DNA from: Patescibacteria group bacterium
GTDB taxonomy: Bacteria; Patescibacteriota; CPR2; UBA1875
Assembly (NCBI GenBank): GCA_041737595.1
Contig: JBGSRK010000011.1
Coordinates: forward strand, 75,806-139,805
Reading direction: 5' to 3'
Length of the DNA stretch: 64,000 nucleotides
Position 1 is the stretch's first letter. Every line of letters begins with the position of its first letter. Shown here one piece after another: positions 12,860 to 38,000 of the stretch. Below the pieces are notes generated by a model, which was not told the DNA's origin, ran no database searches, and saw only the letters and a program-made list of their open reading frames with translations. The position numbers and the translations under genes were made by a program.

Positions 12860-13108
12860 ATGTTACAAGCAATTTTATGGGGAGTTATATTTATAGCTTC
12901 AGGTATCGGTCTAGTTGTTTATGCAAGAAAGCTAGTTGAATGGTTTGGTACAATGGCAACAGCTGAGAAATATCTTGGTTCGGGCGGTACTTATTCGGCC
13001 TTAAGAATAATGGGTATTTTATCAATAATTATAGGGATACTCGTAATGACTGGTTTTTTGGATGATGCACTTTTCAGTGTTGTGAAATTGTTTGGCGTTG
13101 AAAGATAG
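12860..13108 (+). CDS. small two-TM membrane protein
   Basis: 82-aa hydrophobic ORF with gaggg RBS between the two tRNAs. Confidence 0.7.
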   Translation: MLQAILWGVIFIASGIGLVVYARKLVEWFGTMATAEKYLGSGGTYSALRIMGILSIIIGILVMTGFLDDALFSVVKLFGVER

Positions 13109-13187
13109 TTTTTGCTAGTTTTTTTTCAGTTGGAATTAATAGATTCCAACTGCAGAGAAAGCAGAGTAGAAGAGTGAAATCCGCCGT

Positions 13188-13264
13188 GGGCCTGTAGCTC
13201 AGTTGGCTAGAGCGCCTCGCTTGCACCGAGGAGGTCGCAGGTTCGATTCCTGTCAGGTCCACCA
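13188..13264 (+). tRNA. tRNA-Ala(TGC), integration target
   Basis: Cloverleaf, anticodon arm cctcg-ctTGCac-cgagg, encoded CCA. Confidence 0.97.
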
Positions 13265-13266
13265 TA
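13257..13266 (+). repeat. att core copy 1 (tRNA-Ala 3' end)
   Basis: GTCCACCATA. Confidence 0.85.
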
Positions 13267-14778
13267 TTACCATCAGAGTCAGAAATATGCTCTTTTATCC
13301 TGAAGGGAAGGGATAAACTGGGTGTTCCAAATCCCGTCGCCAAGGAGTATTCAGGGTTCTGAGTAAAGATCATATTGTGCAAAATGATTTTGGCTTCAGG
13401 ACTGGCTTTCACCCACGTTTCAGCCGGTGTTCCGATGAATCTAAATACTAGCATAAGAGCTTCCTGTATATCAGGGAGTTTTTTAGTTTCTGATTCTTTT
13501 TCGAATTCCCTTAATTGTCTGTCTACTTCCTCAATTTTTGTTTCATATCGGACTCTTAGTCCTTCAGAGCGAGCCTTACGCACAAGATCAACATAGTCCT
13601 CAAGTGCCTGCTCAAGCTCCTTCTTTTCGTTTTCCTTGGCGTCATAGCCAACACTTAAATCCTTAACTTTTTCATCTCAAACCATTGTTGCCATAGCCAT
13701 ACCCATCTCAAGGACTTCTGGCCCAGCATTAATACTTTCAAGAAGTTGTATGTAATCACTCTCTAATTTAATGGGATCGATATTCTTTGGGTTAGCACTA
13801 CATCCTTTATTATTACAGGTATAGTGGGGGTAGTATTTGTATTTGCCTTTACATACACTTCCAGTCATCTTTTTACCACAAACGGCGCAAGTGATAATTC
13901 TTCTCAAGGGAAATTCATAATTATCAGTTAATCGTGTTCTCTTTTCTGGCTTTGCTATTTTTGCCTGAATCTTATAATAGGTTTCTTCAGAGATAATAGC
14001 TTTGTGATGTCCGGGTCTTTTCGTGATTTCCCACTTATCAAACTCAATAATGCCTGCATAAAGCGGCTCTGTTAGTAATCTCTTGATAAGGTCAAAATTC
14101 ACTTGCTTACTATTTCGTCCTATAAGAACATGAAAGTTCTTTGATATTAGATAATTCATGAGATCTGTCTGACTCAATAAGCGGTTTTCTGCAAATGCAT
14201 TTAATCCTTCTGATAGTACACTTGCTATAGACTTAATGGGGACAAGCAGCTTGCCGTGCTCCTTATCTTTCTGATACTCATAACCACAGGGTGCCATAAA
14301 ACACCAATAACCACGCTCAATCCTTGCTTTCATTTTCTGGCAAACTTGTCTTCGGTTTTGCTTGCGTTCAAGCTGATTCTGGGCAGCAAAGATTGTTTCA
14401 ACGAATTCACCCTCAGCACTGTCGTCAAAGTTATAATTCAGACATCGAAGTTTGGCTTCTCTAGCTCTTAGCTCTGACTTTAGTTTTATGTGGACTTCTA
14501 CATCTCTTGCAAATCTCTTTAGGTCATCAAAAATAACAAAATACTTAGTCTGCCAGTTAATGTCTAAAAACCCGATTAATGATTGCATTGCTGGCCGATC
14601 AAATAGCCCCCCTGATATTCCCTCGTCTTTGAACACTTTTTCAACCTGTAGACCAAGTGAGCGGGCATATTCTCTACACCTATGTTCCTGGCTATCCAAA
14701 CCACTGCCTTCTCTGACTTGTTTTTCAGAGGAGACCCGGCAGTATATAACAGCTTTTGTGTAGTTTGCTTCCATTATA

Positions 14779-14991
14779 TTACCTGAAATCGTCTAAATAA
14801 TAATTAATTGATTTATCAATTATCCCAATCAGATAATTTCGGATTTCGGCAACCTTCTCGTCACTTAAATTGAATTTCCCTAAATATTCTTTACACTCCT
14901 CAACACTAATAACCTTAGAGTCGGGAGTTTCGTGAGCACGAAAGGAACCTTGACCAAGACCGTTAACGGCACTACCATGTGAGTTTTTCAT
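14779..14991 (-). CDS. small protein upstream of recombinase (candidate directionality factor)
   Basis: 70 aa, ggaggg RBS; resembles 30932-31114. Confidence 0.6.
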   Translation of the reverse strand: MKNSHGSAVNGLGQGSFRAHETPDSKVISVEECKEYLGKFNLSDEKVAEIRNYLIGIIDKSINYYLDDFR

Positions 14992-15000
14992 ATTCCCTCC

Positions 15001-15056
15001 TATCTGTATATAGATAACTATATACTAATAATATATCTGTATACAGATAGTGTCAA
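15001..15056 (-). promoter_or_regulatory. promoter with two palindromic operators
   Basis: Minus strand TTGACA-17-TATTAT; TATCTGTATACAGATA at 15034-15049 and TATCTGTATATAGATA at 15001-15016. Confidence 0.7.
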
Positions 15057-15167
15057 GAGTAATTTACAAACAAACCGATATATTGTGATTCACCATAAAA
15101 TGATTGACTTTTCTAATAAATTTGACTAACATTACGCTTAAACTAATGGAGGGTAGGAGTATGACTA

Positions 15168-17822
15168 ATGGATCTTCTCCAAGCCCACCTTGCCCCTACA
15201 ACACTAAATGAGTTTCTTGCGGAAGTCAGACCGCTATGGTCTGCTCTGTTGGTTCTCTTGCCTCGTTTGGTTTACTTGTCGATCGGCGTCAGTACCATCT
15301 ACGCCGTTGTTTACTTTCTTTTGAAATACCTTCGGCCACTAGCTACCAAAAGGGAGCCGTTTGTATTTTTAGAGCTGACCTTCCCCTCAAATACCAGCAA
15401 GAGCCCTTATTCGACCGAACAGCTATTTTCCCAGCTTCATGCATTAGCCAAACAAAATAAGTTCTTTAGTAAAAAGGGTTATTCACTAGAAATAGCCGCT
15501 TCAAAAGAACAGGGAATCAGATATATCCTTGGAGCATCAGAAGACGATGCTGAGATTATTGAGAAGGGCCTTCTTTCTTACTTGCCAGGTTTAAAGATTA
15601 AGGAGATTAAAGACTATCTGCCCGCTGATCTTAAGCTCGACAAAAAGAGCAGTTTAATCGAATTCAAGTTGAAAGGCGACATTGCATTTCCTCTTCAGAA
15701 GCATCTCAAGCTTACCGAGCATGACCCAATCTCGTTTCTAACTGGCAATATGACTAAGTTAAACAAAAATGATCTAATGGTTTTTCAGGCGATTATCACT
15801 CCACTAAGGCACCAAAGCCAGGAAGGTAGGCACATCTTCGATGTTAGACATAAGATTTATGGCCAAGAGGCCTTAATCGAGGAACTGTCCCAAAGGCAGT
15901 GGCGAAAACAGTGGTCTGATTCGCCTTTCGTCGTAATAAAATGGATCCTGAAAGCTTTTGGCTTTGTTATGAGTTTTCTTTTAAGCATGGTTCAAGCTTT
16001 TATGGACCATCGGAGTAGTAATATCTCTTATCTCCAGAATAAGCCGTCAGGAGTAAATAAAGAAGCGACCCAGAACCCTTATGAAGAAGAGCTAAAGCAG
16101 GAGGTCAAGGGTAAAGTTGAACAACCGTTATTTGAAACTTCTTTGCGGCTGTTCATTAAAACTAGCGAACATGCTCAAGTAAGGGTAAGGACTGCGGGAT
16201 TTTTAGCCTCTTTTAACTCACTTGGTACCTCGTTTCAGTCCCTAGTTCTAAAAAAGGATAAACGATTACAGTTTCCAACTAGACTCAACCAGTTTTTAGT
16301 AAGACAGGTTTCTCCCGAGGGCAACCCAGTTCTTTCGATCACTGAACTTGCCGACATCTACCATTTCCCATTTACTAGCACTACTAAGACTGAAGACCTT
16401 GTAAAGAGCCACAGCCAAGAATTGCCAGCTCCTTTATCTCTTAAAAATAACGATAACCTTGATGTTGTCTTTGGCATTAATAATTATGGTAATGCAGCTA
16501 GCGATATCGGCCTCACAGATGATGATCGGTCCCGTCACATGTATTTGATTGGACAGACCGGCTCCGGTAAATCAACAATCATTTACCACATGGCATCTGA
16601 CGATATTAGGAAGGGTCGAGGCGTTTGTGTCGTCGATCCTCATGGTGACTTAGCCGAAGGACTTTTAGAAGAAGTTCCCGATTCAAGGATAAACGACGTT
16701 ATCTACCTAAATCCATTTGATATCAAACATCCCATCGGTATTAACCTTTTAGAGCTAACTCCAGGGCTAGAACCAGACGAAGCGGAGCTAGAGAAGGAAA
16801 TTGTTTGTGAAAGCGTGATATCTATCCTACGAAGAATCTTTAGAAAAGATGAGAACACTGATTCACACAGAATTGAATATATCCTAAGAAATGCTATCTA
16901 TACCGCCTATACCGTCCCAGATGCGACCATCTTCACCGTTTACGACCTTTTGAATGAGCCAAGCTTTAGAAAACAAGTAACACGGGACCTTGCTGACCCT
17001 AATCTCAAGAAGTTTTGGAAAAACGAGTTTGGTAAAGCTGGTGACTATCAAGTTGTTAAGATGGCAGGTGGTGTCACGGCTAAAATCGGTAGATTTTTGT
17101 TCTCGCCAATCGCTAAAAGAATCCTAGAGCAAAAACACTCAACGATAGATTTCGACGAGATTGTTGATAATGAAAAGATTCTGCTTTGTAACCTTGCCGA
17201 AGGTAAGCTAGGTGAAGATACGGCTCAGCTTCTAGGCACGGCCATTATCGCGAAGATCCATCTAGCCATGACTAGGCGCGCTCAGATGGACGCGACCAAA
17301 AGAAAACCTTTTTATCTCTTCGTTGATGAGTTCCAAAACTTTGCTACCAGTTCCTTTACTCGATTGCTTTCCGGAGGCAGAAAGTACGGGCTTAGAGTTA
17401 CTATCGCAGAACAATCAACCGCCCAGCAAGATGATCGAAACATTATCAATGTTATTCTCGCTAACGTTGGCACAGTGGTATGCTTTAGGACGGCTAGTCC
17501 ACTAGACGAGGGACTGATGATGCCTCAGTTTGCACCGCTTGTCGATGTAGGTGACATCGCCAATCTACCTCGGCACCATTTCTACATTAGACTAGCCGCT
17601 CTCGAGCCAGAGGATGCCTTTTCTGGTGAAACCCTCCCAATTCCTACAAGGAACGACAAAGAACGAGTAATGAGGGTTATAAAGGCCTCAAGGAAGAACT
17701 ATGCTATTACCTATGAGAAGCCAGTAGCAGAAACAAAGACACCAGAGGTACTAGAGAAAAAACCCAAAGTTAAAAAAGAGAAGGAAAAGGACTTGCCACA
17801 GGAGGTTAATGCACTCAGCTAG
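15168..17822 (+). CDS. type IV secretion coupling protein / VirD4-TraG-like ATPase
   Basis: Walker A GQTGSGKS, VVDPHGDL, Walker B LFVDEFQNF, GRKYGL; N-terminal TM. Confidence 0.85.
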   Translation: MDLLQAHLAPTTLNEFLAEVRPLWSALLVLLPRLVYLSIGVSTIYAVVYFLLKYLRPLATKREPFVFLELTFPSNTSKSPYSTEQLFSQLHALAKQNKFFSKKGYSLEIAASKEQGIRYILGASEDDAEIIEKGLLSYLPGLKIKEIKDYLPADLKLDKKSSLIEFKLKGDIAFPLQKHLKLTEHDPISFLTGNMTKLNKNDLMVFQAIITPLRHQSQEGRHIFDVRHKIYGQEALIEELSQRQWRKQWSDSPFVVIKWILKAFGFVMSFLLSMVQAFMDHRSSNISYLQNKPSGVNKEATQNPYEEELKQEVKGKVEQPLFETSLRLFIKTSEHAQVRVRTAGFLASFNSLGTSFQSLVLKKDKRLQFPTRLNQFLVRQVSPEGNPVLSITELADIYHFPFTSTTKTEDLVKSHSQELPAPLSLKNNDNLDVVFGINNYGNAASDIGLTDDDRSRHMYLIGQTGSGKSTIIYHMASDDIRKGRGVCVVDPHGDLAEGLLEEVPDSRINDVIYLNPFDIKHPIGINLLELTPGLEPDEAELEKEIVCESVISILRRIFRKDENTDSHRIEYILRNAIYTAYTVPDATIFTVYDLLNEPSFRKQVTRDLADPNLKKFWKNEFGKAGDYQVVKMAGGVTAKIGRFLFSPIAKRILEQKHSTIDFDEIVDNEKILLCNLAEGKLGEDTAQLLGTAIIAKIHLAMTRRAQMDATKRKPFYLFVDEFQNFATSSFTRLLSGGRKYGLRVTIAEQSTAQQDDRNIINVILANVGTVVCFRTASPLDEGLMMPQFAPLVDVGDIANLPRHHFYIRLAALEPEDAFSGETLPIPTRNDKERVMRVIKASRKNYAITYEKPVAETKTPEVLEKKPKVKKEKEKDLPQEVNALS

Positions 17823-17952
17823 GTCATGAAAATAGTGTACACTTACGTCCACTAAATAAGCTGATTTTCGTGCTTAAATCTTATAAAACTACTACGTTAA
17901 TATTTATATACTATATATATCTGACTAGCCAACTAACTAACTTACAAAAACT

Positions 17953-18735
17953 ATGAAGCAAACAACAACACAACCTACAATCAAACAAAGACAAATCGAA
18001 ATACTTATCCTACTCTATCGGTTCCGCTATTTAAATAGAGCTCACATTCAAGCAATACTAGAACATAAATCAAGAAGTAAAATACTAGAATGGTTAAATG
18101 AACTAAAAGAAGAGAACTACATTGAGTGTGAGTTTGACAAGAAAATAGCATCGTCTCCTTCTGTATACTCATTAGCCCCCAAGTCTCGCAGTATCTTAAA
18201 AGATAACCCAATGATCAAACCCAGGCTTCTTGGTCATATTTGGAGGGATAAAACATATTCTGATGAGTTCCGCGATCACTGTCTTTTCTTAGGCGATATC
18301 TACCTCTCGCTGATTACACTCACTAACAAGATCGGAGCAGAACTACATTATTACACCAAGCCAGACCTACATGGTATGGGACACTTGATTACGCCTATCC
18401 CTGACGGCTACTTTGCCATTGAAGAAAACAGCGGGCGAACCAAACGATATTTTCTCGAACTCTTTGACGATCTGCCCCCTAGGTTTTTAAGAACTCGTCT
18501 CAATAGCTACTTTAAGTACTATGATTCGGATGAATGGCAATATAATACCGACAAACCGTTTCCTGAAATCATTATTGTCTGTCCGAGTGATAGAATTAAA
18601 AGCCACCTTAGCTATTATATTCAGAGCAAGCTCGAAGAAGATTCAGAAATTGTTTTCCTCCTAACTACCAAAGAGATCATAAAAGTCCATGGATTGAGTA
18701 GTAAAGCATTACAAAAGATTGCACCGAAGGCATGA
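17953..18735 (+). CDS. replication-relaxation family protein (putative relaxase)
   Basis: N-terminal wHTH (LYRFRYLN...I), PDGYF...YFLE nuclease-like motif; adjacent to coupling protein. Confidence 0.7.
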   Translation: MKQTTTQPTIKQRQIEILILLYRFRYLNRAHIQAILEHKSRSKILEWLNELKEENYIECEFDKKIASSPSVYSLAPKSRSILKDNPMIKPRLLGHIWRDKTYSDEFRDHCLFLGDIYLSLITLTNKIGAELHYYTKPDLHGMGHLITPIPDGYFAIEENSGRTKRYFLELFDDLPPRFLRTRLNSYFKYYDSDEWQYNTDKPFPEIIIVCPSDRIKSHLSYYIQSKLEEDSEIVFLLTTKEIIKVHGLSSKALQKIAPKA

Positions 18736-18775
18736 AAAAAGGCCCGAGAAGTTAAACACTTCCCGAGCCTCTTTT

Positions 18776-19099
18776 CTAGTACTCATCTGCGAGCATCACC
18801 GTCATCGCTCTTTTACAGTCATGAAATAGTGGATCAGCACCATATTCCATGTTCTGATCGTAGTAATCAATCTTCCAGAAGACTTTATCATCTTCCCACT
18901 TCAAACTTCCGAAGTCGTGTTCGCCGTAGGGATCATTATCTTCGTTAAAGTCATTGAACAGTCTAATCCTACCCAATAGACTCTCTAGGTTTCTGATAGC
19001 TTGAACCCCTTGAGTCAAGATGACACCAAACCCTGACTCTCGAAACCGATCATTTAAGACCGCTATGCTTGCAGCCTGAACATCTAACGCACTTACCAT
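18776..19099 (-). CDS. DUF3768 domain protein
   Basis: LNDRFR, NDPYGEHDFG, FWKIDYYD, TVMLADEY. Confidence 0.85.
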   Translation of the reverse strand: MVSALDVQAASIAVLNDRFRESGFGVILTQGVQAIRNLESLLGRIRLFNDFNEDNDPYGEHDFGSLKWEDDKVFWKIDYYDQNMEYGADPLFHDCKRAMTVMLADEY

Positions 19100-19357
19100 T
19101 TCTTTTCTCCTTTCTTTTATTTTTTCTGGGCAAGTCGACCTCTTGCCTCAAGAAGGAGGGAAGAACAGCACTCTGGGCATGTCAAGGTGGAGCCCATCCG
19201 ATTAAAAGCAATAGAAAAAGGGATCACCTTGATGTGCTCAGAACTGTTCTTATAATGAGAAGGAATGGCAGGAGGTCGTTGCACCACACCGAAAACCAGA
19301 AGCTCTTTATTTTTACTCTTAAAAATGCTAGGATTAAGCCAAAGTAAGGAGATTTTT

Positions 19358-19780
19358 ATGGCAGACGAAACCGAAAAGCCTGATGGTAGCAAAACTACTT
19401 TTAGTCATCAACTAAAGCCGGATCAGCCAGAATCGACAGAAGAACCGGTTGATCCTGAAGCTCTTGCTAAAATTGAGAATAGAAAACAGAGAGTCAGTGC
19501 TAATGAGCGCCGACTAGCTGAGAGAAAAGAGCATGGCGAACTATCTGAAGCTGATTTTGGATTTAATGAAGTAAGCCAGCTAGACTCGGCCGGAATTCCT
19601 TTATCACGCAAAGCCGTGGGTAATAGAGCTGTTGTAATAACGCAAGAGGATCTTGAATACCTCGGGGGCATCGAAATGGTTACGGACAATGGAGAAACCG
19701 TGCTATTTTCCCCCGAAGTCACCGGGTATGACCTAGACGAAAGAATTATTATCTGGCCAGAAGAACTTGGCGACATTTAA
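19358..19780 (+). CDS. hypothetical acidic protein
   Basis: aaggag RBS before ATG 19358. Confidence 0.6.
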   Translation: MADETEKPDGSKTTFSHQLKPDQPESTEEPVDPEALAKIENRKQRVSANERRLAERKEHGELSEADFGFNEVSQLDSAGIPLSRKAVGNRAVVITQEDLEYLGGIEMVTDNGETVLFSPEVTGYDLDERIIIWPEELGDI

Positions 19781-19807
19781 ATCATGAAATAGTGAGGCAG
19801 TATATTT

Positions 19808-20434
19808 ATGAAGATACACATACTTGAATCCGAAGACTGGGCAAAGTGCACCCTTAGCAAAGAGGATGTCTCAAAATGGATCACCGAATCAGCTGAAGAA
19901 GCCTCTGCTTTACTTTTGGATGTCATGCCGACCTTAAATATTATCGTTAAGCCAAGTTTACCTCATATATCCAACAACAAGGGCGTTGGTGGTTCTACTT
20001 ACGATTATGAGCTAGTAGACATTACTTTTGATACTGCGATTCCGTTGGGGGTTGATAAGTTTCGTAAATATCTTAGGGAAGCCATCTTTCACGAAATGAA
20101 CCATGCAATGTATTCACGTTTCTTTCCTCGCGAGGGCAGGCAACTTTACTGGACGGTTCTAGAAGGTCTAGGCACCGTTTTCGACCGAGACTACGCCGAT
20201 GGCGAACACTTCACTAATGTCGAGACGGCCACCGATAAAGAAAAGCTGGGATGGCTAAACAAATATATAGTTACTTCTACCAGGTATAGTGATGTTCCTG
20301 ATGACTCGCAAGGTATGGTGTACCAAGTTGGGGTTTGGTTAGTTGATCGGGCAATAAAAAACTCTGGTAATAACGTCGTTGAACTTACACATTTATCGCC
20401 AGACGAGATATTGCAGATGGCTGATATTATATAG
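19808..20434 (+). CDS. putative Zn-dependent protease (DUF2268-like)
   Basis: HEMNH zincin motif plus downstream EGLG. Confidence 0.7.
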   Translation: MKIHILESEDWAKCTLSKEDVSKWITESAEEASALLLDVMPTLNIIVKPSLPHISNNKGVGGSTYDYELVDITFDTAIPLGVDKFRKYLREAIFHEMNHAMYSRFFPREGRQLYWTVLEGLGTVFDRDYADGEHFTNVETATDKEKLGWLNKYIVTSTRYSDVPDDSQGMVYQVGVWLVDRAIKNSGNNVVELTHLSPDEILQMADII

Positions 20435-20577
20435 CTATTTACCAATACCATAATATAATCTGTTCTTATAATTAGAATGATGGCAGGAGGTCAACACACT
20501 TATTACACTTATTCGGATATAATCATTTGATTATTCGTATCAATGTGATACGATTACATAGGAGAAATGATACGAAT

Positions 20578-21633: not shown

Positions 21634-21892
21634 TAATCGGTTCGTTTTTTTACTCTTTAATTAAAACATTGTTTCTGAATCCATAAAGTGCAGTATATCA
21701 GGAGAAACTTTGTACTTGTTTTGCATTTTCTGATACAATAAACATAAGCTATTTACGGGGGGACAAGAGTGTTCAGACAAGAACAATTTGTACAATTCTA
21801 TAAAACTACAAAAGAATCGCTCCAGGCGGGTCTCCTTAGCTTTGCCTATATAACAAACAGGAGGGACAATATATGTCTATATCAGAACAAAC

Positions 21893-21910
21893 CTCTCTCT
21901 CTCTCTCTCT
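21893..21910 (+). repeat. (CT)9 simple sequence repeat in a short leader ORF
   Basis: Read directly; leader ATG at 21873 with ggaggg RBS. Confidence 0.85.
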
Positions 21911-28136: not shown

Positions 28137-28141
28137 TCGTC

Positions 28142-29758: not shown

Positions 29759-29873
29759 ATTTTCTCCTTAAATCAAATGGGGACAACCCTGCTGTACACA
29801 GACCCTTGCGGATACTGAACAGGATTGCCCCCAAATGGCAATATCCGCAATATGAATCTGTGTACGCTTTAAA

Positions 29874-30596: not shown

Positions 30597-30942
30597 TTGT
30601 AATCTCCTCTAATTTAATTTCTATTTGTGATTCCTTTATTGAGGCAAGCATTATATTTGCTAGATAGCCTATGGTATTTGCCTCCTTAGGAGACAGCTCA
30701 CCTTGTCTAATTTCATTGATGCACCTGTTCAGGAGCCTTGTAACGTCTTTTGAGTTACTAACATTGATGCTATCCTGCTCAACTCGGGGCTTCTTTATTT
30801 GTTGCCCGCCTTTTCTTACGGCTTCATATTTTTTATCGCTTAATTCTGGCTCGTGTGAAAAGCAGTAATCATACCCATTTACGGCGTAGGCACAGCATTT
30901 TTGACCATTCGGTTTAATATATTCACAGTGCTTACTCATCAC
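30568..30942 (-). CDS. hypothetical protein with N-terminal C3H zinc finger
   Basis: CEYIKPNGQKCCAYAVNGYDYCFSH. Confidence 0.6.
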   Translation of the reverse strand: MMSKHCEYIKPNGQKCCAYAVNGYDYCFSHEPELSDKKYEAVRKGGQQIKKPRVEQDSINVSNSKDVTRLLNRCINEIRQGELSPKEANTIGYLANIMLASIKESQIEIKLEEITNAIQRRQED

Positions 30943-31114
30943 GGCCTCCCTTATCTAGTAAGTAAAGCTTATGGGGGGTTCCTTGTTTTTCTGCCAGCCA
31001 CTTTTCAAAGATAATGTCTACTAATGAACGAACTGAATCTCTAAGAATCTCTGCATCCCCATCAGATATGGAGGAGTCCCCCAATAATCGTTTTGTTCGC
31101 TCAAGACTAATCAT
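30932..31114 (-). CDS. small protein resembling 14779-14991
   Basis: ISLERTKRLLG-SISD..AEILR versus ISVEECKEYLG-NLSD..VAEIR. Confidence 0.55.
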   Translation of the reverse strand: MISLERTKRLLGDSSISDGDAEILRDSVRSLVDIIFEKWLAEKQGTPHKLYLLDKGGRDE

Positions 31115-31116
31115 TA

Positions 31117-31263
31117 TTATTTACCTATCTGTTCCTCAATAATCTCTTCAAGTAAAAATTTGACGCTTACCCCCTTCTCTGCTGAAGCTAGCTTCATTTT
31201 TTTATGTAGTTCAGAATTGATTCTTACTTGTTTTGATGTTGTTTTGTAAACTTGTCGCTTCAT
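31117..31263 (-). CDS. ribbon-helix-helix type small regulator (48 aa)
   Basis: Translated by hand: KQVRINSELHKKMKLASAEKGVSVKFLLEEII; aggagag RBS. Confidence 0.6.
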   Translation of the reverse strand: MKRQVYKTTSKQVRINSELHKKMKLASAEKGVSVKFLLEEIIEEQIGK

Positions 31264-31544
31264 AATTCTCTCCTTTCAGCCTTAGTATCCTCTCCCTCCC
31301 ACCAGCCGTTTTCCTTCCTCTGAGCAGTAGACTTCACTTAGTGTGTTTATCTACTGGCCTGCTCGTCGTTAAGGTATCCGTGTGGACTTATAGGTCGGGC
31401 TAGCAATCCTGATATATTTCTTTTAAGTCGCATATCACACTTGCTAGTAGTATCTTCCACGACTGTAATTATTATAAAACGAAAAAAATCACCTTAAATT
31501 CTAGGATTCAAGGTGACAGTTAAACTATATTTTATGAAGCGAGA

Positions 31545-32480
31545 TTATTTACCAATTAATCTTTTTCTGATAGCTGATTTAGTAACTCCTGTTTTCTTTC
31601 CAACCATTTCGTATATTTCGGCTTTGCTTCTATACTCACCACTATTGCTAGAGCTAGTCTTTAGCTCACTGAACATCTGGGTTGTTTTTTCTGCCTTGTT
31701 TCTGTCTTTGTAATCACGCTTGACAGCACCTCTTAAGAAGCCCTGAAATCTATCAAGGTTAGAGTCAACTAGGTCCATTATTTCTGATTTAGTTGTATCT
31801 TTATCAAAGACAATGCTACATTCCCAAGAAGCATCGTCATCGCTCCAATTTAATCTAAGGGACGTGCTATTGTTTGCTGGTACTAGTCGATTAAAAAGAA
31901 TCAGCTCAATGATTGCTTTTTTATATCTGTTGGGTAGGTCCCATCTTCTAAGAACGCTGTAAGCCACGGAACCTATTTCCTTATTTGCCTTTGCGATTGC
32001 CCCACCACGGTGAAGTGCCAGCTCTTTTGCCTCTTTGTAATCATTCATAAACCTGCCTATAAACCATTTTTCAAACGCGGGACTTATAGGGTTTTCTTGA
32101 GAAGAATTCAAGAAAATGTAATCAATCGTATATTGAAACTTCTCTGGCAGGTCATTTGATAGAGCAAACCCTGTATTTGGTCTAGGCATTCCAAGCGCTT
32201 TTCTTGCCTCAATCATTGTATTTTTATCTTGTGTAGACAGCTTGTTATGAGCTAGGTCTTTTGCTCTTTCTTTGTAGGGGTAGCTTCCTTTTGATGTTAG
32301 CAATGGCACAACATTATCGGTCAGCATTCTTTTGAAAACGTTTAACTCCCCAATCATATAGTAATCTTTTTCAAAACCAAAGGTTTCCAGTGTCTTTCGA
32401 GTAAAATTACCATTCTCTTGACGATAATCCTCAAAGATACCTGACCTGTTAAGTTGTTCAATAAATCCATTTATATCCAT
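31545..32480 (-). CDS. hypothetical protein with possible C-terminal HTH
   Basis: 311 aa ending VGKKTGVTKSAIRKRL. Confidence 0.6.
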   Translation of the reverse strand: MDINGFIEQLNRSGIFEDYRQENGNFTRKTLETFGFEKDYYMIGELNVFKRMLTDNVVPLLTSKGSYPYKERAKDLAHNKLSTQDKNTMIEARKALGMPRPNTGFALSNDLPEKFQYTIDYIFLNSSQENPISPAFEKWFIGRFMNDYKEAKELALHRGGAIAKANKEIGSVAYSVLRRWDLPNRYKKAIIELILFNRLVPANNSTSLRLNWSDDDASWECSIVFDKDTTKSEIMDLVDSNLDRFQGFLRGAVKRDYKDRNKAEKTTQMFSELKTSSSNSGEYRSKAEIYEMVGKKTGVTKSAIRKRLIGK

Positions 32481-32558
32481 AATTATATTCTAATCCTATA
32501 GGTGTATGTGTGACAAGTCGCTTTGTACACTATCATTTAAGGAGCAAAATGGTTTATA

Positions 32559-33617
32559 ATGACAGTAATGAAAACACCAAGCTTATTTAATAAGATTGAG
32601 GAAAAATCAGGGGATTTTACATTTATTGACCTTTTCGCAGGCATCGGAGGGATTCGGCTTGGCTTTGAACAAAACGGTGGTGAATGTGTTTACTCATCAG
32701 AATGGGATAAATTTGCGCAACTAACATATCAGGCTAATTTTCAAGAATTGCCAAGTGGTGACATTACAAAAATAGACCCGAAAGTAATTCCTCCTTTTGA
32801 TGTGCTAATGGCTGGTTTTCCTTGCCAACCATTCTCTATGGCCGGTAAGAAACGAGGGTTTGAAGATACTCGAGGAACAATGTTCTTTTATATCGCTAAG
32901 ATTATTGAGAAACACAAGCCTAAAGCTATTTTACTTGAGAATGTAAAAAACTTCAGGTCTCACGATAAAGGAAATACATTAAAGACCGTGGTGAGTGTTC
33001 TTGAAGACCTAGGATATTCAATCCAGTACAAGGTTCTAAATGCCAAGGATTTTGGGGTACCTCAGAACAGAGAAAGAATCTATATAGTAGGGTTTAGGGG
33101 CAAGACAAATTTCGAGTTTCCTGAGTCAGTGGGAACAGTGACAAGACTTGGAGATATTCTTGAAAATAATGTTGACTCTAAGTACACCATATCTGATAAA
33201 CTCTGGGCGGGACATCAGAGAAGAAAGGAAATGCATAAAATCAAAGGTAACGGTTTTGGGTACTCCCTTTTTAATGAGGACAGTGTTTATACAAGTACTA
33301 TTTCTGCTAGGTATTATAAGGATGGTTCAGAAATTCTGATTGAACAAAAGGGTAAGAATCCAAGAAAGCTCACCCCAAGAGAGGCTGGGAGGCTACAGGG
33401 GTTCCCAGATAGCTACCTGATACCAGTAAGCGATAATCAGGCTTATAAACAATTCGGTAATAGTGTGGCTGTCCCAGTTATTAATGCAGTTGCTTGTAAT
33501 ATGGTAAAGGGAATGAATGATTTGGCTGAGTCAAAGAATAAAGCCCGTATAAGCGCGGTTGATATAGATGCTATTATGGTTAACAAGGCGGAAGGTGATG
33601 TTTGCTATGAAAATTAA
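32559..33617 (+). CDS. DNA (cytosine-5) methyltransferase
   Basis: FAGIGG, GFPCQ, LLENV, PQNRER, SARYYKDGSEILI, FGNSV. Confidence 0.95.
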   Translation: MTVMKTPSLFNKIEEKSGDFTFIDLFAGIGGIRLGFEQNGGECVYSSEWDKFAQLTYQANFQELPSGDITKIDPKVIPPFDVLMAGFPCQPFSMAGKKRGFEDTRGTMFFYIAKIIEKHKPKAILLENVKNFRSHDKGNTLKTVVSVLEDLGYSIQYKVLNAKDFGVPQNRERIYIVGFRGKTNFEFPESVGTVTRLGDILENNVDSKYTISDKLWAGHQRRKEMHKIKGNGFGYSLFNEDSVYTSTISARYYKDGSEILIEQKGKNPRKLTPREAGRLQGFPDSYLIPVSDNQAYKQFGNSVAVPVINAVACNMVKGMNDLAESKNKARISAVDIDAIMVNKAEGDVCYEN

Positions 33618-34632
33618 TGATTTAGAAATTACACAAACAAAGTTAGACGTAAATTATAAACTATACCTATTTTTAAAAGAGCTAAATGGCGGTAATGGCC
33701 TCACGGAAGCAATGCTTTCATTTTTTTTAGAACTCATCAGTTCTTTTAAGGACGCGGACTATGAAAATGCTAGAAGATTATTTATTGATAAGATTAATAA
33801 TTGGCCTAAGCTGAGCGATAGTAAGAAAGAAAATATACTATCCCTATTTTATGAGATTGATGAAGAAAACGACTTTGTGCTTTTAAAGTTTGCCTTGAAA
33901 ATTCTTGCCGTGAAACCATTGTTACTTGAAGAGGCAAAATTGGCTCAAACATCAAAACTAGTAAACACCGACGGGCTACACCTTCTTTCTCTAGAATTTG
34001 ATAGAATAAGTAAAAGCAAACCATATTATACGCGAGTAAATGGAGCATTGGTTTCATTAGTATTTTTTGAGAAGATTGAAAGTGGCAAAGATGGCTTTCT
34101 TTTGGGAGTTAATGCTGATTTTACAAAATCGCTGATTGAAGAAGCAAAAACAATTTGTAGTATGGGAGTTGAGCCTAATCAGATATTTATGATTATGTTT
34201 ATGGAATGTATCAACCAATCCATAGTATCTGATGCAGGTGGTAGTTATGAGGATAGGATTGAAGATGTTCTCGTTTCAATGGGAATACCAAGAGAAAGTA
34301 TAAAGAAGATTCACGATAAAGATGATAATGCGACAGAATTTGACTTTTTCTTTGAGTTAAATGGTAAAACTATTGGAATTGGAGCTAAAAGAACTTTAAG
34401 AGAACGATATAAGCAATTTATTAAAACAGCTCAAATGTCACAGATAGACATTATGATTGAGGTAACCCTAGGACTTGACCTGACACAAAATAAGGTTGAG
34501 GCAATCGCAAATCACGGCGTCTACCTATTTGTAGCAGATGAGATTTATAATTCACTTGAATACTTACACAAATTTGATAAGGTTTATCCCGTATCAAAGT
34601 TTACTATGGATGTTTTTAAGTCACTCAAATAA
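33607..34632 (+). CDS. putative type II restriction endonuclease (EcoRII-C/Ecl18kI-like)
   Basis: AGGSYE...EFDFF...GAKRTLRERYKQ; overlaps the MTase stop. Confidence 0.75.
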   Translation: MKINDLEITQTKLDVNYKLYLFLKELNGGNGLTEAMLSFFLELISSFKDADYENARRLFIDKINNWPKLSDSKKENILSLFYEIDEENDFVLLKFALKILAVKPLLLEEAKLAQTSKLVNTDGLHLLSLEFDRISKSKPYYTRVNGALVSLVFFEKIESGKDGFLLGVNADFTKSLIEEAKTICSMGVEPNQIFMIMFMECINQSIVSDAGGSYEDRIEDVLVSMGIPRESIKKIHDKDDNATEFDFFFELNGKTIGIGAKRTLRERYKQFIKTAQMSQIDIMIEVTLGLDLTQNKVEAIANHGVYLFVADEIYNSLEYLHKFDKVYPVSKFTMDVFKSLK

Positions 34633-34687
34633 TTACTTAGACAAAGGATGAACAGCACGGTTAAAAACTGAGGTATGGGGCAAAATT

Positions 34688-35152
34688 ATGAACGATTCGA
34701 TGTATTATGAGATAGCTAGGTATATAAAAACGAAAGGCTGGAAAGATTCTCCAGAATCAAATACTTTTTGCGAAGGTAAAAAGATTATTAACAACACCTG
34801 TATTTGTGTCAGTGGATGTGTCGGGAATTGTTCAACTGGTGAGCAACTCAGTGCTAAAGAAACCTTTTTGAATGTAATAGTTAACCACGATATTGAAAGT
34901 AGAGAAATCCATTCAATTACCTTTGGTGTTTTGGCTGGAAAGGATTTCGAGAATAGGAGGGATTGTTTTCGTGTTGATTTTGATAAAAAGGGCTGGCATA
35001 TTGATGCAGAAGGCTATAAGCCACATATGAAGATAAACGCTGATTTAGAAGCTGAGGACCCTAATGAATATACAAAAATAATCGACCTTATAGTGGCATA
35101 TGGCCAAGGATTACCCAGAATGAATGACACTGGTTTGCAACTCGTTTATTAG
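34688..35152 (+). CDS. hypothetical protein
   Basis: 154-aa ORF in the cargo operon. Confidence 0.55.
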   Translation: MNDSMYYEIARYIKTKGWKDSPESNTFCEGKKIINNTCICVSGCVGNCSTGEQLSAKETFLNVIVNHDIESREIHSITFGVLAGKDFENRRDCFRVDFDKKGWHIDAEGYKPHMKINADLEAEDPNEYTKIIDLIVAYGQGLPRMNDTGLQLVY

Positions 35153-35234
35153 CGTTAATTATAAGAGAGCTGACAATTTGGACCGCTTGAAGTAGGATTT
35201 AGCAAATAGCTTAAGGTTTTTCCCTAGGTAGAGT

Positions 35235-36347
35235 ATGATTATGCAAATAGTATATTTCCCATATCTTAATATGCAACAAAAGGACGAATATCTTTTTAAT
35301 GATGGCTATATTAAAATATGGAATTTCAAGCTAAAGGGAAAAGATTATATTAAAGATGTAGAGCTGTACAAAAAAATTAAGGCGTTAGTTTGCTCCAATA
35401 TACACGGAGGAAGAGCAATTGAAGATGTTGGTATCCTAGCTATCGGCAACTGTGATTTTCGTGAGTTTAGCAAAGGCGAAATGGATACCGCCGAAGAACT
35501 GAAGTTTCTTCTTTTTATCTCACACGTATCAAACAACGCAAAACTTGGGCAGGATGTGAATGCTGGTCATTATGCATATACATCAGAAAACTTTGATTTA
35601 GTAATTCAAAACTTCAGGATGGATAACGAATACTTTGGCATTCAGGATGGCTTTATAGTAAGAATGTCAATCGGTGGCTATCAGATTGGAAAGAAAACAT
35701 TCCAAACCCCTGCTTATCTCTTGAAACCAATGGGAATTTCTATGGATGAGAACCTATTAAACTCATTGTTTGAATTGAAGAAAAAGAAACCAACGTTATA
35801 TAACAGAGTTATGGAAGCTATTAAAATATTCTTTCTTAGCTACTATAATTCTCCTGCTTTAAGTCAGAACGCAAGAATACTTTTACAGGTGTCAGCATTT
35901 GAAGTTTTACTTAAAATTCCAAACAGTGAGCAAAGGAGGCATTTCAGAGAAACAATAGAAAGACTGTGCTCTTCATCTAATGAAAAACAAGTATCTTACT
36001 GGTCGGAGGCTTATGGTAGAAAAAAAATAAGAAGAATGGGAACATTGAAGGCCCGCTGGGCTGACGGTTTTTACCTTCTAAGAAATCACATTATTCACGG
36101 AAATAAGATTAAGTCTAAAGAATATCTTTTCTGTAATAAACAAAATTATTTTGATACTTGTCTTCTGTTTTTTATATTATCTATAAAGAGACTTATAGAG
36201 AACGCATTAAAGAAACCCGTCTTTTATGATGCGATAAAATGGTCGAAGCGAAAGGATGATTTCGGCAACATTATTGAGGGCTTTATTTATGAAAATGGTA
36301 CTCTACAGCTTATTGTTGAAAAGGAGCTCTCTAAGTGGGGAATGTAA
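35235..36347 (+). CDS. HEPN domain protein (ApeA-like)
   Basis: SAFEVLL and YLLRNHIIHG (R-x4-H). Confidence 0.75.
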   Translation: MIMQIVYFPYLNMQQKDEYLFNDGYIKIWNFKLKGKDYIKDVELYKKIKALVCSNIHGGRAIEDVGILAIGNCDFREFSKGEMDTAEELKFLLFISHVSNNAKLGQDVNAGHYAYTSENFDLVIQNFRMDNEYFGIQDGFIVRMSIGGYQIGKKTFQTPAYLLKPMGISMDENLLNSLFELKKKKPTLYNRVMEAIKIFFLSYYNSPALSQNARILLQVSAFEVLLKIPNSEQRRHFRETIERLCSSSNEKQVSYWSEAYGRKKIRRMGTLKARWADGFYLLRNHIIHGNKIKSKEYLFCNKQNYFDTCLLFFILSIKRLIENALKKPVFYDAIKWSKRKDDFGNIIEGFIYENGTLQLIVEKELSKWGM

Positions 36348-36379
36348 TTACAACAAACTAACAGAGGAGAACTTGTTAT

Positions 36380-37237
36380 ATGAGAGCTAAAGCTCAGCAT
36401 TATGTGCCAAGATTTTATTTAAAAAACTTTTCTAAAAAAAAGGGCTCAAAGTACATTACTCAGTGCTATAGCAAACAAGATGGCAAGGTCTTTTCTGTAA
36501 ATATTACAAAAATCTGTCAAGAAAATGGGTTCTACGACGTGAAGACGGATGATTATCTGTTTTCAATTGAAGAAAACTTAGCTGAATTTGAGTCAAAGGT
36601 GGCTCCTGTCTATAAAAAACTCGTAGACAGCAAAAAGTTGTCTGTGTTAGACAACGAAGGAAAGATTGCAATTGCTACCTTTGTAATTTTACAAATGCTT
36701 CGGACTCCTGAACAAAGAATATCATTTCGGCATATGGAGCAACAACTTGCTGATAGGTTCCCTGGTTTTGAAAAGAACTTTGTGGGTGAGAGAAACAAAG
36801 AAAATTCAATTTCTCATATTACTTTTTTAAACGAAAATGTTAATGAGTTCGTGTTTATACTAATGCAACTGAAATGGGTGCTAATTTTGGCACCAGACCA
36901 TTCTTTTTGGACTTCAGACAACCCCGTTTATAAACATAACGAACTTAAGTCAAAGTTCCGTGGCACTCTAGGTCTAGCGTGTAAGAGTATTCAGGTTATT
37001 CTTCCTCTGTCACACAATTTGCTGTTAATGATATTTGATGGCGATACCTACACGAATATTAAAACTGATGAGGTTACTGCAAATTCAGAAAATATAAAAC
37101 ACTATAACTTTGGACAAATAGTTTGTTCGATTAGGCATATTTTCGGTGAAAAACCGAACTTTACTCTTGCAGAAAAAATCCTTAGAGAATCTCCTGAATA
37201 TATGAATCCCGATAGGATAAGAACAAAAATGTCTTAG
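36380..37237 (+). CDS. DUF4238 domain protein
   Basis: QHYVPRFYLKNF, FWTSDNPV, LPLS. Confidence 0.85.
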   Translation: MRAKAQHYVPRFYLKNFSKKKGSKYITQCYSKQDGKVFSVNITKICQENGFYDVKTDDYLFSIEENLAEFESKVAPVYKKLVDSKKLSVLDNEGKIAIATFVILQMLRTPEQRISFRHMEQQLADRFPGFEKNFVGERNKENSISHITFLNENVNEFVFILMQLKWVLILAPDHSFWTSDNPVYKHNELKSKFRGTLGLACKSIQVILPLSHNLLLMIFDGDTYTNIKTDEVTANSENIKHYNFGQIVCSIRHIFGEKPNFTLAEKILRESPEYMNPDRIRTKMS

Positions 37238-37458
37238 CTTTTAAATTCAAAATTAAGAGAGAATGTGTTAATATTTATATAGAAAATTGAATATTCGCCT
37301 AACCCTTGTGACTCGTCATAAGGTATGGCATAAAAATCCGTTCAAAGTATAAAGCTCTTCGTCAGAGCACTTTGAACGGTCGTGTCCCGAAAGGGATGTG
37401 GGTGACTTCGGTCATCGCTGGCGGGGAGCTTTTTGATACTCCGTACAAAGGAGAACTT

Positions 37459-37926
37459 GTGAAATCATTTTGTGTAAAATGCGATAAGCAACAGGAAATG
37501 CTGAACGTAAAAGACAAATACTACCCGAAAGTTGGAAAGCCTGGTTTTGAGGGTATATGTTTGATTTGTGGTAGGAAATTGTATAGAGTAGGTTCTGAAA
37601 AGGAAATAAAGAAAGACGATATTGAGAGTCAATATAGCAAGATAGAGGAAATAAAGAATACTTGTATGGCTTGTAAAAATGTATGGTTTTATGGAGTAAA
37701 TGAAAAGCCTAAGGAGTTAAGTATTTCAGACAAGCTTCATAATTTATCGGTGTCGTATGAGAATACAGCAAAAACTGGCTTAGCAATTACTGGATTTTTA
37801 CCAGCTTTTTTACTCCCTGACAAAGAAAAAAGGAAAGCGCCAGAAAACCCAGATAGAAGTAGGTGCCCTAAATGTGGCTCAAAAGCAATAAAGACTAAAA
37901 AGGTTGTCCATAAGTTTAAGAAATAG
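37459..37926 (+). CDS. multi zinc-ribbon protein
   Basis: Four CxxC pairs; aaggag RBS before GTG 37459. Confidence 0.6.
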   Translation: MKSFCVKCDKQQEMLNVKDKYYPKVGKPGFEGICLICGRKLYRVGSEKEIKKDDIESQYSKIEEIKNTCMACKNVWFYGVNEKPKELSISDKLHNLSVSYENTAKTGLAITGFLPAFLLPDKEKRKAPENPDRSRCPKCGSKAIKTKKVVHKFKK

Positions 37927-37990
37927 TCAATTCTAAGCTTTGCCAAGCCCAGAGTTCCGTGATAATTCCGTTCCAACTATTTTTCACGTA

Positions 37991-38000
37991 GTCCACCATA
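37991..38000 (+). repeat. att core copy 3 (right island boundary)
   Basis: GTCCACCATA. Confidence 0.85.

What the first reader, a model, noticed from the sequence alone, without database searches (positions are those of the whole stretch)
13074..38000. att core lies inside the recombinase ORF, so integration swaps the enzyme's C-terminal tail
Seen: the att core read on the minus strand is ATG GTG GAC (M-V-D), in frame in both recombinases. Recombinase 1 continues into antisense tRNA-Ala (MVDLTGIEPATSS...). Recombinase 2 continues into the right end of element 1 (MVDRNQKYWNTFVKIALEW...). The right end of element 2 holds an orphan in-frame tail at 37999-37916 (MVDYVKNSWNGIITELWAWQSLELTIS*). The two element-end tails share WN at positions 9-10 and W at 19, which suggests selection at protein level. 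Inference: the full WN-x8-W enzyme is made only from the excised circle (attP), while the integrated copy has a tRNA-antisense tail, giving a DNA-state-dependent directionality or activity switch. Tandem insertion has given recombinase 2 its neighbour's attP-type tail.
Basis: partly seen in the sequence, partly recalled or inferred. Interest (0 to 1): 0.85.

Follow-up and report, generated by a model that had tools for sequence, protein, structure and literature searches.

The report
Serine integrase whose tail swaps on integration
Two mobile elements sit in tandem behind a tRNA-Ala gene, and each carries a serine integrase whose own reading frame crosses the recombination site, so integration replaces a conserved last helix of the enzyme with unrelated sequence; this arrangement recurs across a large, undescribed integrase family.

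Summary
GTCCACCAT occurs three times (13257, 28241, 37991), against 0.23 expected. It bounds two tandem elements behind tRNA-Ala, and it is in frame (M-V-D) in both large serine recombinases.

It is probably dead.

The proposed tail is real and conserved across the family, as xV[DH]-x5-WNQ[IL]xxEL+EW.
- It ends 22 of 71 genome homologs and 22 of 75 metagenome homologs.
- 40 and 42 homologs instead run into an antisense tRNA exactly at the invariant Val.
- Orphan tails lie at the far end of integrated relatives. All 5 genomes tested by pattern search had one.
- One 7.2-kb circular contig carries the whole gene.

The tail lies beyond the canonical integrase fold. It is predicted to dock at the base of the coiled-coil, the part that sets directionality (score 0.71, best control 0.01).

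The W-N codons (TGGAAC) also mimic the tRNA T-arm (TCGAAC), 5 bp further out. That is the known attP/attB register of these enzymes.

A functional switch is plausible but untested. Contigs showed no circle junctions. Many full-length copies sit on large contigs and are unexplained.

The closest precedent is phage Mx8, which uses a tyrosine integrase. I class this as a new variant of a known kind.

The parts
13188..13264 (+). tRNA-Ala(tgc), the integration target. Its last 8 bases are part of att core 1, and its T-arm GTTCGA lies at 13241-13246.
   Evidence: ARAGORN; Rfam; sequence
13257..13265 (.). att core copy 1 (GTCCACCAT): the junction of the tRNA with the body of recombinase 1
13266..28240 (.). 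Element 1 (about 15 kb), conjugative or mobilisable in type. It carries a coupling protein, Replic_Relax, Fic, VirB4-like pieces, a reverse transcriptase and a PLD nuclease.
   Evidence: Pfam; bounds
13074..14774 (-). Recombinase 1, a large serine recombinase. An in-frame TGA at 13677-13679 falls on an invariant Trp. After MVD the frame runs 60 codons through antisense tRNA-Ala.
28142..28240 (-). Tail 1, the native C-terminal tail of recombinase 1, now read as the end of recombinase 2. Its W-N codons form the DNA motif GTTCCAA at 28220-28226.
   Evidence: it matches the tails of P0066 and P0118
28241..28249 (.). att core copy 2, the junction of element 1 with element 2. Contigs of two runs bridge it.
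28142..29758 (-). Recombinase 2, an intact 538-aa large serine recombinase (P0001). The body is 28250-29758, the core 28241-28249, and the tail is borrowed.
28250..37990 (.). Element 2 (about 9.75 kb). It carries a C5 DNA methylase, an EcoRII-C-like gene, DUF4238 and a LOOT RNA.
37916..37990 (-). Orphan tail 2, the native tail of recombinase 2 (YVKNSWNGIITELWAWQSLELTIS*). Its W-N codons form GTTCCAA at 37970-37976.
37991..37999 (.). att core copy 3, the distal end of element 2
38000..38033 (+). Original tRNA trailer, a hairpin followed by a T run. In relatives the same 34-mer directly follows an intact tRNA-Asn, or follows other orphan tails.

Best explanation
Shown. Two integrative elements lie in tandem at the 3' end of tRNA-Ala. 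Each encodes a large serine recombinase whose attP crossover lies inside its own reading frame, about 30 codons before the stop.

In the un-integrated (attP) form, the enzyme ends in a conserved amphipathic helix (WNQ-I-x-x-EL-x-x-W-x-x-L) that lies beyond the canonical integrase fold. Integration at the tRNA leaves that helix at the far end of the element and fuses the enzyme body to antisense tRNA sequence. A second insertion next to the first gives one enzyme the other's helix, as here for recombinase 2.

The W-N codons (TGGAAC) double as the outer DNA motif of the attP half-site. They copy the tRNA T-arm (TCGAAC) 5 bp further from the centre, which is the known attP/attB register of these enzymes.

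Inferred. The helix fills a hydrophobic groove at the base of the coiled-coil, which controls synapsis and directionality. The attP-encoded and the integrated enzyme would therefore differ in activity or directionality, the full-length form being the integration-proficient one.

Recombinase 1 is probably inactivated by a nonsense mutation.
For: Cores and frames.

Family pattern in genome contigs (79 loci, 73 ORFs reaching the profile end):
- Val at the junction in 71 of 73.
- In 40 of those 71 an antisense tRNA starts within 3 nt of that Val. Counting the window as well, the targets are Ala 27, Glu 5, Lys 3, Met 2, Ile 2, Tyr 1, Arg 1.
- 22 of 71 have the WN tail.

Family pattern in metagenome contigs (80 loci, 75 ORFs reaching the end): 42 tRNA-fused, 22 WN, 7 other, 4 run off the contig.

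Protein searches: WN tails in 10 of 64 recombinase-2 homologs and 7 of 65 recombinase-1 homologs.

Orphan tails at distal ends:
- 5 of 49 loci within 10-kb flanks.
- 3 of 42 metagenome loci.
- 5 of 5 genomes by pattern search, with 1 hit each and 0 for the reversed control pattern. All lie 12.6-18.8 kb upstream on the gene's strand and all translate to full tails.
- 4 more in relatives.

Circular form: L136 is a whole 7366-nt contig with a 127-nt terminal overlap and the full-length gene.

Protein-level selection beyond the att site, from 28 tails:
- E14 in 26 of 28.
- L15 in 24 of 28, using 6 different codons.
- W18 in 22 of 28.
- In codons 10-21, third positions vary most and pN/pS is 0.51, against 0.96 for codons 3-7.

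DNA register: the attB and attP arms match best at a shift of +5 (0.414; next best 0.328 among 19 shifts). The phiC31 cryo-EM preprint (passages read) places the zinc-ribbon domain at positions 17-27 on attP and 5 bp closer on attB.

Structure:
- The AlphaFold model of the native full-length homolog P0015 has mean pLDDT 86, and 83-88 over tail helix 509-531.
- Solved integrases align only up to model residues 484-495, with one row reaching 518.
- Docking of residues 498-532 onto 281-497 scored 0.71, best of 3 controls 0.01. That mark was reached by 58 of 80 solved complexes and 2 of 110 mismatched pairs. The runs agree in at least 91% of contacts, and partner pLDDT is at least 80.
- Contacts join W509, I512, L516, W519, L522 and I526 to F351, V354, F355, V359 and L362 at the start of coiled-coil helix 1, and to L458, F462, L465 and I487.
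Against: No test of activity or directionality was possible. The laid data were contigs only and showed no joint at 28241 or 37991, so excision is not documented.

Full-length genes with no tRNA nearby are common: 22 of 71 and 22 of 75 loci. Some lie on contigs of 0.6-7.3 Mb. Five such genomes hold no neighbouring close family member. The full-length form is therefore not confined to circles.

On the tree the WN and tRNA states are clustered (14 changes against 37.6 when shuffled). This includes a clade of 22 rows with 21 WN. That fits a lineage that keeps the gene whole.

Orphan tails were found in only 5 of 49 and 3 of 42 loci within the flanks held.

N10 is AAC in 25 of 27 cases. This points to a DNA constraint on WN rather than a protein one.

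Dyad symmetry of the rebuilt attP is weak (best 0.35 at centre 5.5), so the crossover dinucleotide is not placed.

The docking is a model's confidence score and used my own alignment.

Recombinase 2 with the neighbour's tail folds with pLDDT 38-56 in the tail, though that alignment is dominated by tRNA-type tails.
Confidence: 0.6

Rival explanations
1. Lock-in by self-truncation. The helix is simply a structural part of the enzyme. Integration cripples the resident recombinase, as with the 'suicidal' SSV-type integrases. The element then stays put unless a full-length enzyme comes from another copy or a tandem neighbour. There is no directionality logic.
For: The tail's conserved hydrophobic face is predicted to bury a groove, so its loss could destabilise the protein. 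Tandem arrays and decaying copies exist: the nonsense codon in recombinase 1, split VirB4 pieces and the split L068. No circle junctions were seen. The SSV precedent comes from the abstract of PMC7253208 in the listing.
Against: The swap removes only an extension beyond the canonical fold. The catalytic, recombinase, zinc-ribbon and coiled-coil parts stay intact. Nearly all tRNA-fused genes are open up to the junction: 40 in the genome set and 42 in the metagenome set, with few broken ones. For Mx8, a review reports that the swapped integrase stays active with altered specificity (passage of PMC6070905).
Confidence: 0.25
2. DNA constraint only. The tail is conserved because it overlaps the attP half-site that the enzyme must bind. 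The peptide itself has no role, and the frame is open by accident.
For: TGGAAC sits where the zinc-ribbon domain should bind and mimics the tRNA T-arm at +5. N10 uses AAC in 25 of 27 cases, and the base before TGG is T in 22 of 28.
Against: Conservation runs to codon 21, about 60 bp from the core. That is beyond the roughly +/-27 bp contacted in phiC31. It shows free synonymous change (L15 has 6 codons) and a third-position entropy maximum. Amino-acid identity is 0.38 in frame against 0.24 and 0.18 out of frame. The helix has a regular hydrophobic face that docks in the model.
Confidence: 0.08
3. The swap is functionally neutral. The att site drifted into the 3' end of the gene through genome compaction, and enzymes with any tail work alike.
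For: Tails read from antisense tRNA differ widely in length and sequence. The enzyme tolerates at least seven tRNA targets.
Against: A neutral appendage would not keep W9, E14, L15, W18 and L21 across enzymes of 37-60% identity, nor in orphan copies that are not part of any gene while integrated.
Confidence: 0.07

Closest known systems
Large serine recombinases / phage serine integrases (phiC31, Bxb1, A118/LI, SPbeta)
   Same: It has the resolvase catalytic domain, recombinase domain, zinc ribbon with four Cys and inserted coiled-coil. The best structural matches are the SPbeta, Bxb1, phiC31 and LI integrases. The outer att motif is shifted 5 bp between attP and attB.
   Different: The target is the 3' end of tRNA genes. 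The Islander paper of 2014 states that serine integrases were not known to target these (passage). The crossover lies inside the enzyme's own ORF. The enzyme has an extra C-terminal helix beyond the solved folds, and that helix is detached by integration.
Myxophage Mx8 integrase IntP/IntX
   Same: attP lies within the integrase coding sequence, and integration creates a new 3' end of int. The altered enzyme is reported to stay active with changed specificity (review passage, PMC6070905). The Islander paper also cites Mx8 and SSV integrases as extending across attP. That the Mx8 target is a tRNA gene is my recollection, not read here.
   Different: Mx8 Int is a tyrosine recombinase. From recollection, its replaced segment is much longer. 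There is no coiled-coil directionality device and no dual-coded T-arm mimic.
SSV-type 'suicidal' integrases of archaeal viruses and plasmids
   Same: The recombination site lies inside the integrase ORF, so integration splits the gene (abstract of PMC7253208).
   Different: These are tyrosine recombinases. The gene is cut into two inactive parts, whereas here it loses only a terminal helix.
Integration-dependent immunity (mycobacteriophage BPs/Brujita type; corynephage CyranoPS)
   Same: attP lies near the 3' end of a gene, so integration at a tRNA removes a short C-terminal tail and changes the protein's behaviour. The CyranoPS repressor loses 15 residues and becomes more protective (passages of 10.64898/2026.10.29.762952).
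   Different: The gene affected there is the repressor, and the integrase is a tyrosine recombinase. Here the recombinase itself is re-tailed.

Membership tests
Large serine recombinase | N-terminal resolvase-type catalytic domain with the catalytic Ser | tested here: met
   PF00239 scores E 4.9e-27 for recombinase 2 and 8.8e-26 for recombinase 1. R8, S10 and S11 are invariant in 38 homologs.
Large serine recombinase | Recombinase domain followed by a zinc ribbon with four Cys | tested here: met
   PF07508 and PF13408 match both enzymes. C296, C299, C320 and C325 are invariant.
Large serine recombinase | Coiled-coil motif inserted in the zinc-ribbon domain | tested here: met
   The model has long paired helices 349-396 and 402-426. 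VIA-align gives Z 17.2 to 9dxh_A, 14.8 to Bxb1 9iu2_A and 13.7 to phiC31 9rah_A, with high rmsd across the flexible domains.
Large serine recombinase | attP and attB half-sites whose outer (zinc-ribbon) motif differs in register by 5 bp | tested here: met
   Among 19 shifts, +5 is best (0.414 against at most 0.328) for 41 tRNA arms and 28 tail arms. TCGAAC lies at 19-24 and TGGAAC at 24-29. In the window, GTTCGA lies 16 nt before core 1 and GTTCCA 21 nt before cores 2 and 3. This is in silico only.
Large serine recombinase | Unidirectional attP x attB recombination, reversed by a directionality factor | not testable with these tools
   No assay was possible. No candidate directionality factor was identified: the small ORFs next to recombinase 2 have no Pfam match.
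Mx8-type integrase with intragenic attP | attP inside the integrase ORF, so that integration gives a new C-terminus | tested here: met
Mx8-type integrase with intragenic attP | Tyrosine recombinase chemistry | tested here: not met
   Both enzymes are serine recombinases. This works like Mx8 but is not a member.
SSV-type split integrase | Integration separates the gene into two non-functional parts | tested here: not met
   Only about 30 codons beyond the canonical fold are detached.

The most novel reading that the evidence does not exclude
The detachable C-terminal helix is a built-in directionality device that reads the state of the DNA. The enzyme made from attP, with the helix clamped on the coiled-coil hinge, integrates. 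The enzyme made from the integrated copy, with the groove empty, behaves differently and may excise without, or with a different, directionality factor.

In some lineages the same intragenic site may serve as an integron-like platform. Recombinase-less cassettes, each bringing its own tail, pile up there; the contig behind L029, L030 and L128 has four.
Probability: 0.25. Interest if true: 0.9.

Novelty: new variant of a known kind. Interest (0 to 1): 0.78.

Why it matters
Serine integrases are major genome-engineering tools. How they choose between integration and excision is a central question, so far answered only by separate directionality-factor proteins acting at the coiled-coil base.

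Here a large natural family rewires the enzyme's own C-terminus with each recombination event, at exactly that place. This offers a natural isoform pair to test.

The family also targets tRNA genes, which a 2014 reference work said serine integrases were not known to do. It does so through a DNA motif that is also two codons of the enzyme, a compact case of dual coding.

It appears to be a main integration system of the elements in Patescibacteria (CPR) genomes, whose mobile elements are poorly known.

Tried and rejected
**Alternative genetic code for recombinase 1.** Under code 4 the only long ORF that gains is recombinase 1. Host and element genes end in TGA. Rejected in favour of a nonsense mutation.

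**Circle junctions or an empty site.** Only Logan contigs of three runs from one study were on hand. None showed a joint at 28241 or 37991. X1 did not cover 36.8-38.1 kb. Contigs cannot show rare forms, so this says nothing either way.

**IMG/VR viral contigs.** 12 loci were found, all distant (23-34% identity). The elements are not catalogued as viruses.

**Dyad symmetry of the rebuilt attP.** It is weak, so the crossover dinucleotide is not placed.

**Tandem neighbours as the reason for full-length genes on large contigs.** No second close family member was found in 5 such genomes.

**Empty tRNA-Ala site in relatives.** Not found among the 31 genomes searched (30 relatives plus the window's own). 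Only the trailer behind a tRNA-Asn, a tRNA-Ala fragment and other occupied sites were found.

**Literature.**
- Six searches found no report of a serine integrase with attP inside its own ORF, or of one targeting tRNA genes.
- The main text of Durrant et al. 2022 has no occurrence of 'tRNA'. Its supplementary tables of 6,207 predicted att sites, and the TIGER/Islander database, could not be seen and may hold such cases.
- The LOOT RNA search gave nothing useful.
- The earlier-findings look-up returned one unrelated note.

**First maximum-likelihood tree.** The run did not finish. FastTree was used instead.
Full report
**What is in the window.**

tRNA-Ile and tRNA-Ala follow the 16S rRNA gene. 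The last bases of tRNA-Ala, GTCCACCA plus T, recur exactly at 28241 and 37991. That is three copies against 0.23 expected, and none of 100 shuffles reached three.

The copies divide the region into element 1 (13266-28240) and element 2 (28250-37990).
- Element 1 carries a type IV coupling protein, a Replic_Relax protein, Fic, VirB4-like pieces, a reverse transcriptase and a PLD nuclease.
- Element 2 carries a C5 methylase with an EcoRII-C-like neighbour, DUF4238 and a LOOT RNA.

Each element has, at its tRNA-proximal end and pointing at the tRNA, a large serine recombinase with Resolvase, Recombinase and Zn_ribbon_recom domains. The two are 29% identical, and their alignment runs to the very residues M-V-D encoded by the core.

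- Recombinase 1 runs into antisense tRNA-Ala.
- Recombinase 2 runs into the right end of element 1.
- An orphan 27-codon frame lies at the right end of element 2.

Beyond the third core lies a 34-nt hairpin trailer. In a relative the same trailer directly follows an intact tRNA-Asn. In other relatives it follows further orphan tails. This fits it being the original tRNA trailer.

Contigs of two runs of one study bridge the element 1/element 2 junction (X1 26928-29394, X2 27573-28349). X1 may be the source sample.

Recombinase 1 has an in-frame TGA at codon 366. In an alignment with 54 homologs that column is Trp in all 54. Host genes use TGA as a stop, and code 4 lengthens no other long ORF of the region. 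I read this as a TGG-to-TGA nonsense mutation. Element 1 is probably decaying, as its VirB4-like gene is also in pieces.

**Is the tail real? Family evidence.**

A search with the C-terminal half of recombinase 2 gave 64 proteins. Ten of them end in xV[DAP]-x5-W[NK]-x-[IL]-x-x-[ED]L-x-x-W. Most others end in peptides typical of antisense tRNA, such as GLEPATSS and RIELPTQQCEC.

The same split holds for recombinase 1. 7 of 65 homologs end in WN-type tails (one is WH). Those tails (WNTF.EIALEWEP.LR.IYD) match the window's tail 1. Tail 1 is therefore recombinase 1's own tail, now fused to recombinase 2.

In 79 loci from species-representative genomes, 73 ORFs reach the end of the family profile.
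- 71 of them have Val at the junction.
- In 40 of those 71, ARAGORN finds an antisense tRNA beginning within 3 nt of that Val codon.
- 22 have the WN tail and no tRNA within 400 nt.
- 9 are other or cut off.

With the window included, the targets are Ala 27, Glu 5, Lys 3, Met 2, Ile 2, Tyr 1 and Arg 1.

In 80 metagenome loci, 75 ORFs reach the profile end: 42 are tRNA-fused, 22 WN, 7 other and 4 run off.

The test was to find a conserved tail just beyond the distal att of integrated homologs. It passes.
- Within the 10-kb flanks held, I found a core-matched, in-frame WN tail upstream in 5 of 49 non-WN genome loci.
- I found one in 3 of 42 metagenome loci, plus one with a weaker core match.
- Most elements are longer than the flanks. 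I therefore searched five whole genomes of tRNA-Ala-fused loci for GTGGAC-N15-TGGAAC. Each had exactly one hit, and the reversed control pattern had none. Every hit lies on the recombinase's strand, 12.6-18.8 kb upstream of the junction, and translates to a full tail such as LVDLVRNQWNEILRELAEWNQLKIAHEALLATR*.
- Four more orphan tails turned up in relatives of the window's genome.
- One whole contig, L136 (7366 nt), has a 127-nt terminal overlap, which marks it as a circle of about 7.2 kb. It carries the full-length gene ending ...LVDSLRNSWNQIIEELQAWQGF....

**Protein or DNA constraint?**

Both apply. Over 28 tails:
- V1 and W8 are invariant.
- N9 is present in 27, as AAC in 25 of those.
- E14 is present in 26.
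- L15 is present in 24, spread over six codons.
- W18 is present in 22.
- L21 is present in 17.

After WN (codons 10-21), entropy is highest at third positions (1.35, 0.92, 1.57). In-frame amino-acid identity (0.38) exceeds that of the other frames (0.24, 0.18). pN/pS is 0.51, against 0.96 for the five codons between core and WN. That stretch lies about 26-62 bp from the core, beyond the roughly +/-27 bp that phiC31 integrase contacts on attP (passages). Protein-level selection is the simplest reading there.

The W-N codons themselves are different. TGGAAC at positions 24-29 of the attP arm corresponds to TCGAAC, the antisense of the tRNA T-arm, at positions 19-24 of the attB arm. Among 19 shifts, +5 gives the best match (0.414; next best 0.328). 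The phiC31 cryo-EM preprint states that the zinc-ribbon domain binds positions 17-27 on attP and sits 5 bp closer to the centre on attB.

So WN is also the enzyme's outer DNA recognition motif, copied from the target tRNA in the register expected for attP. The near-fixed AAC codon fits this. The register shift is visible in the window itself: GTTCGA lies 16 nt before core 1, and GTTCCA lies 21 nt before cores 2 and 3.

**Where the tail sits.**

An AlphaFold model of a native full-length homolog (P0015, 532 aa, alignment of 26 WN-tailed proteins) has mean pLDDT 86.
- The junction Val502 lies in helix 498-507.
- The tail forms helix 509-531, with pLDDT 83-88.

The best structural matches are the SPbeta, Bxb1, phiC31 and LI integrases. 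Their alignments stop at model residues 484-495, with one row reaching 518. The junction helix and tail are therefore an extension beyond the known fold. The integrated enzyme keeps all canonical domains.

Docking the tail (498-532) against residues 281-497 gave a score of 0.71, with the best of 3 controls at 0.01.
- That mark was reached by 58 of 80 solved complexes and by 2 of 110 mismatched pairs.
- The runs agree in at least 91% of contacts, and partner pLDDT is at least 80.
- My own alignment was used, so the calibration holds only roughly.

The conserved face W509, I512, L516, W519, L522, I526 meets two groups of residues. One is F351, V354, F355, V359 and L362 at the start of the first coiled-coil helix. 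The other is L458, F462 and L465 of the conserved RFQKLVFP helix, plus I487.

In phiC31 the directionality factor binds at the base of the coiled-coil and touches the extreme C-terminus (passage). This is the basis, by analogy only, for thinking the swap changes directionality.

Recombinase 2 with its borrowed tail folds with pLDDT 38-56 in the tail. The alignment used there is mostly tRNA-tailed, so I give this little weight.

**What does not fit neatly.**

Full-length genes are not confined to circles. All 22 WN loci from genomes carry non-CPR depositor labels. Several lie on contigs of 0.6-7.3 Mb. Five such genomes hold no close neighbour copy.

On a FastTree of 139 enzyme bodies, the WN state needs 14 changes against 37.6 when shuffled. 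It is therefore clustered, with one clade of 22 rows holding 21 WN. Even so, at least 7 switches are forced by supported branches. Examples are L031 (tRNA-Ile-fused) next to L130 (WN), and L048 (WN) inside CPR tRNA-fused rows. Some lineages may keep the gene whole by means I could not see.

One clue is a contig of about 38.6 kb that appears in three data sets (L029, L030, L128). Its recombinase is followed by four further in-frame core-plus-tail copies, 1.0-1.45 kb apart. The last equals the own tail of a close relative. It looks as if recombinase-less cassettes had been inserted one after another into the intragenic site.

**Comparison with known systems and novelty.**

The enzymes are large serine recombinases by every sequence and fold criterion tested.

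The idea of an attP inside the integrase gene is known for two groups, both tyrosine recombinases.
- For phage Mx8, integration gives int a new 3' end and the enzyme stays active with altered specificity (review passage).
- For SSV-type integrases the gene is split (abstract).

Tail removal by integration is also known for repressors (CyranoPS passages).

The Islander paper of 2014 states that serine integrases were not known to target tRNA genes. Six literature searches found no report of a serine integrase with an intragenic attP or a tRNA target. Supplementary tables of large att-site surveys could not be seen.

I class this as a new variant of a known kind. The anatomy is well supported. 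The functional switch is plausible and testable, but not shown.

Noticed in passing
L029:11400-16600 (same in L030 and L128): The recombinase is followed by four more in-frame core-plus-tail copies (12453, 13898, 15037, 16386). Each unit of 1.0-1.45 kb holds a variable minus-strand ORF (95-225 aa, no confident Pfam match), a conserved block of about 300 nt with a 62-73 aa ORF, and a hairpin arm. The last tail equals the own tail of relative L035. The whole looks like an integron-like cassette array built on the intragenic att site. L118 has one extra tail.
   Followed up: partly
window 37296-37416: A LOOT RNA (Rfam RF03000, 90 bits) lies inside element 2, just upstream of and overlapping the start of the 184-aa ORF 37372-37926. 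A literature search gave nothing on its function.
   Followed up: partly
window 38000-38033: A 34-nt hairpin trailer (AAATTTAATGGCT...AGCCATTATTTTTAT) is 88-100% conserved behind tRNA or att ends in six relatives of other genera and families. This is unusually high for an intergenic terminator. In G022 it occurs twice, 7.6 kb apart, each time behind an orphan tail.
   Followed up: partly
window 46135-49530: The 23S rRNA match spans 3396 nt for a model of 2925 positions, so it holds an insertion of about 470 nt. The rRNA genes are also unlinked: the 16S gene is at 10976-12463, with protein genes and the two elements in between.
   Followed up: no
window 12860-13108: An 82-aa ORF sits between tRNA-Ile and tRNA-Ala, in what is usually a plain spacer.
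   Followed up: no
window 24805-25442 and 25752-26831: Element 1 has a 132-nt direct repeat (90% identity, 506 nt apart) just upstream of a reverse-transcriptase gene (RVT_1, E 1e-25). This is possibly a retron or a group II intron remnant.
   Followed up: no
L070:3156 and 4954: A second copy of core plus tail lies 1.8 kb downstream of the recombinase in a Sumerlaeota contig. It has a 1-nt insertion that breaks the frame.
   Followed up: no
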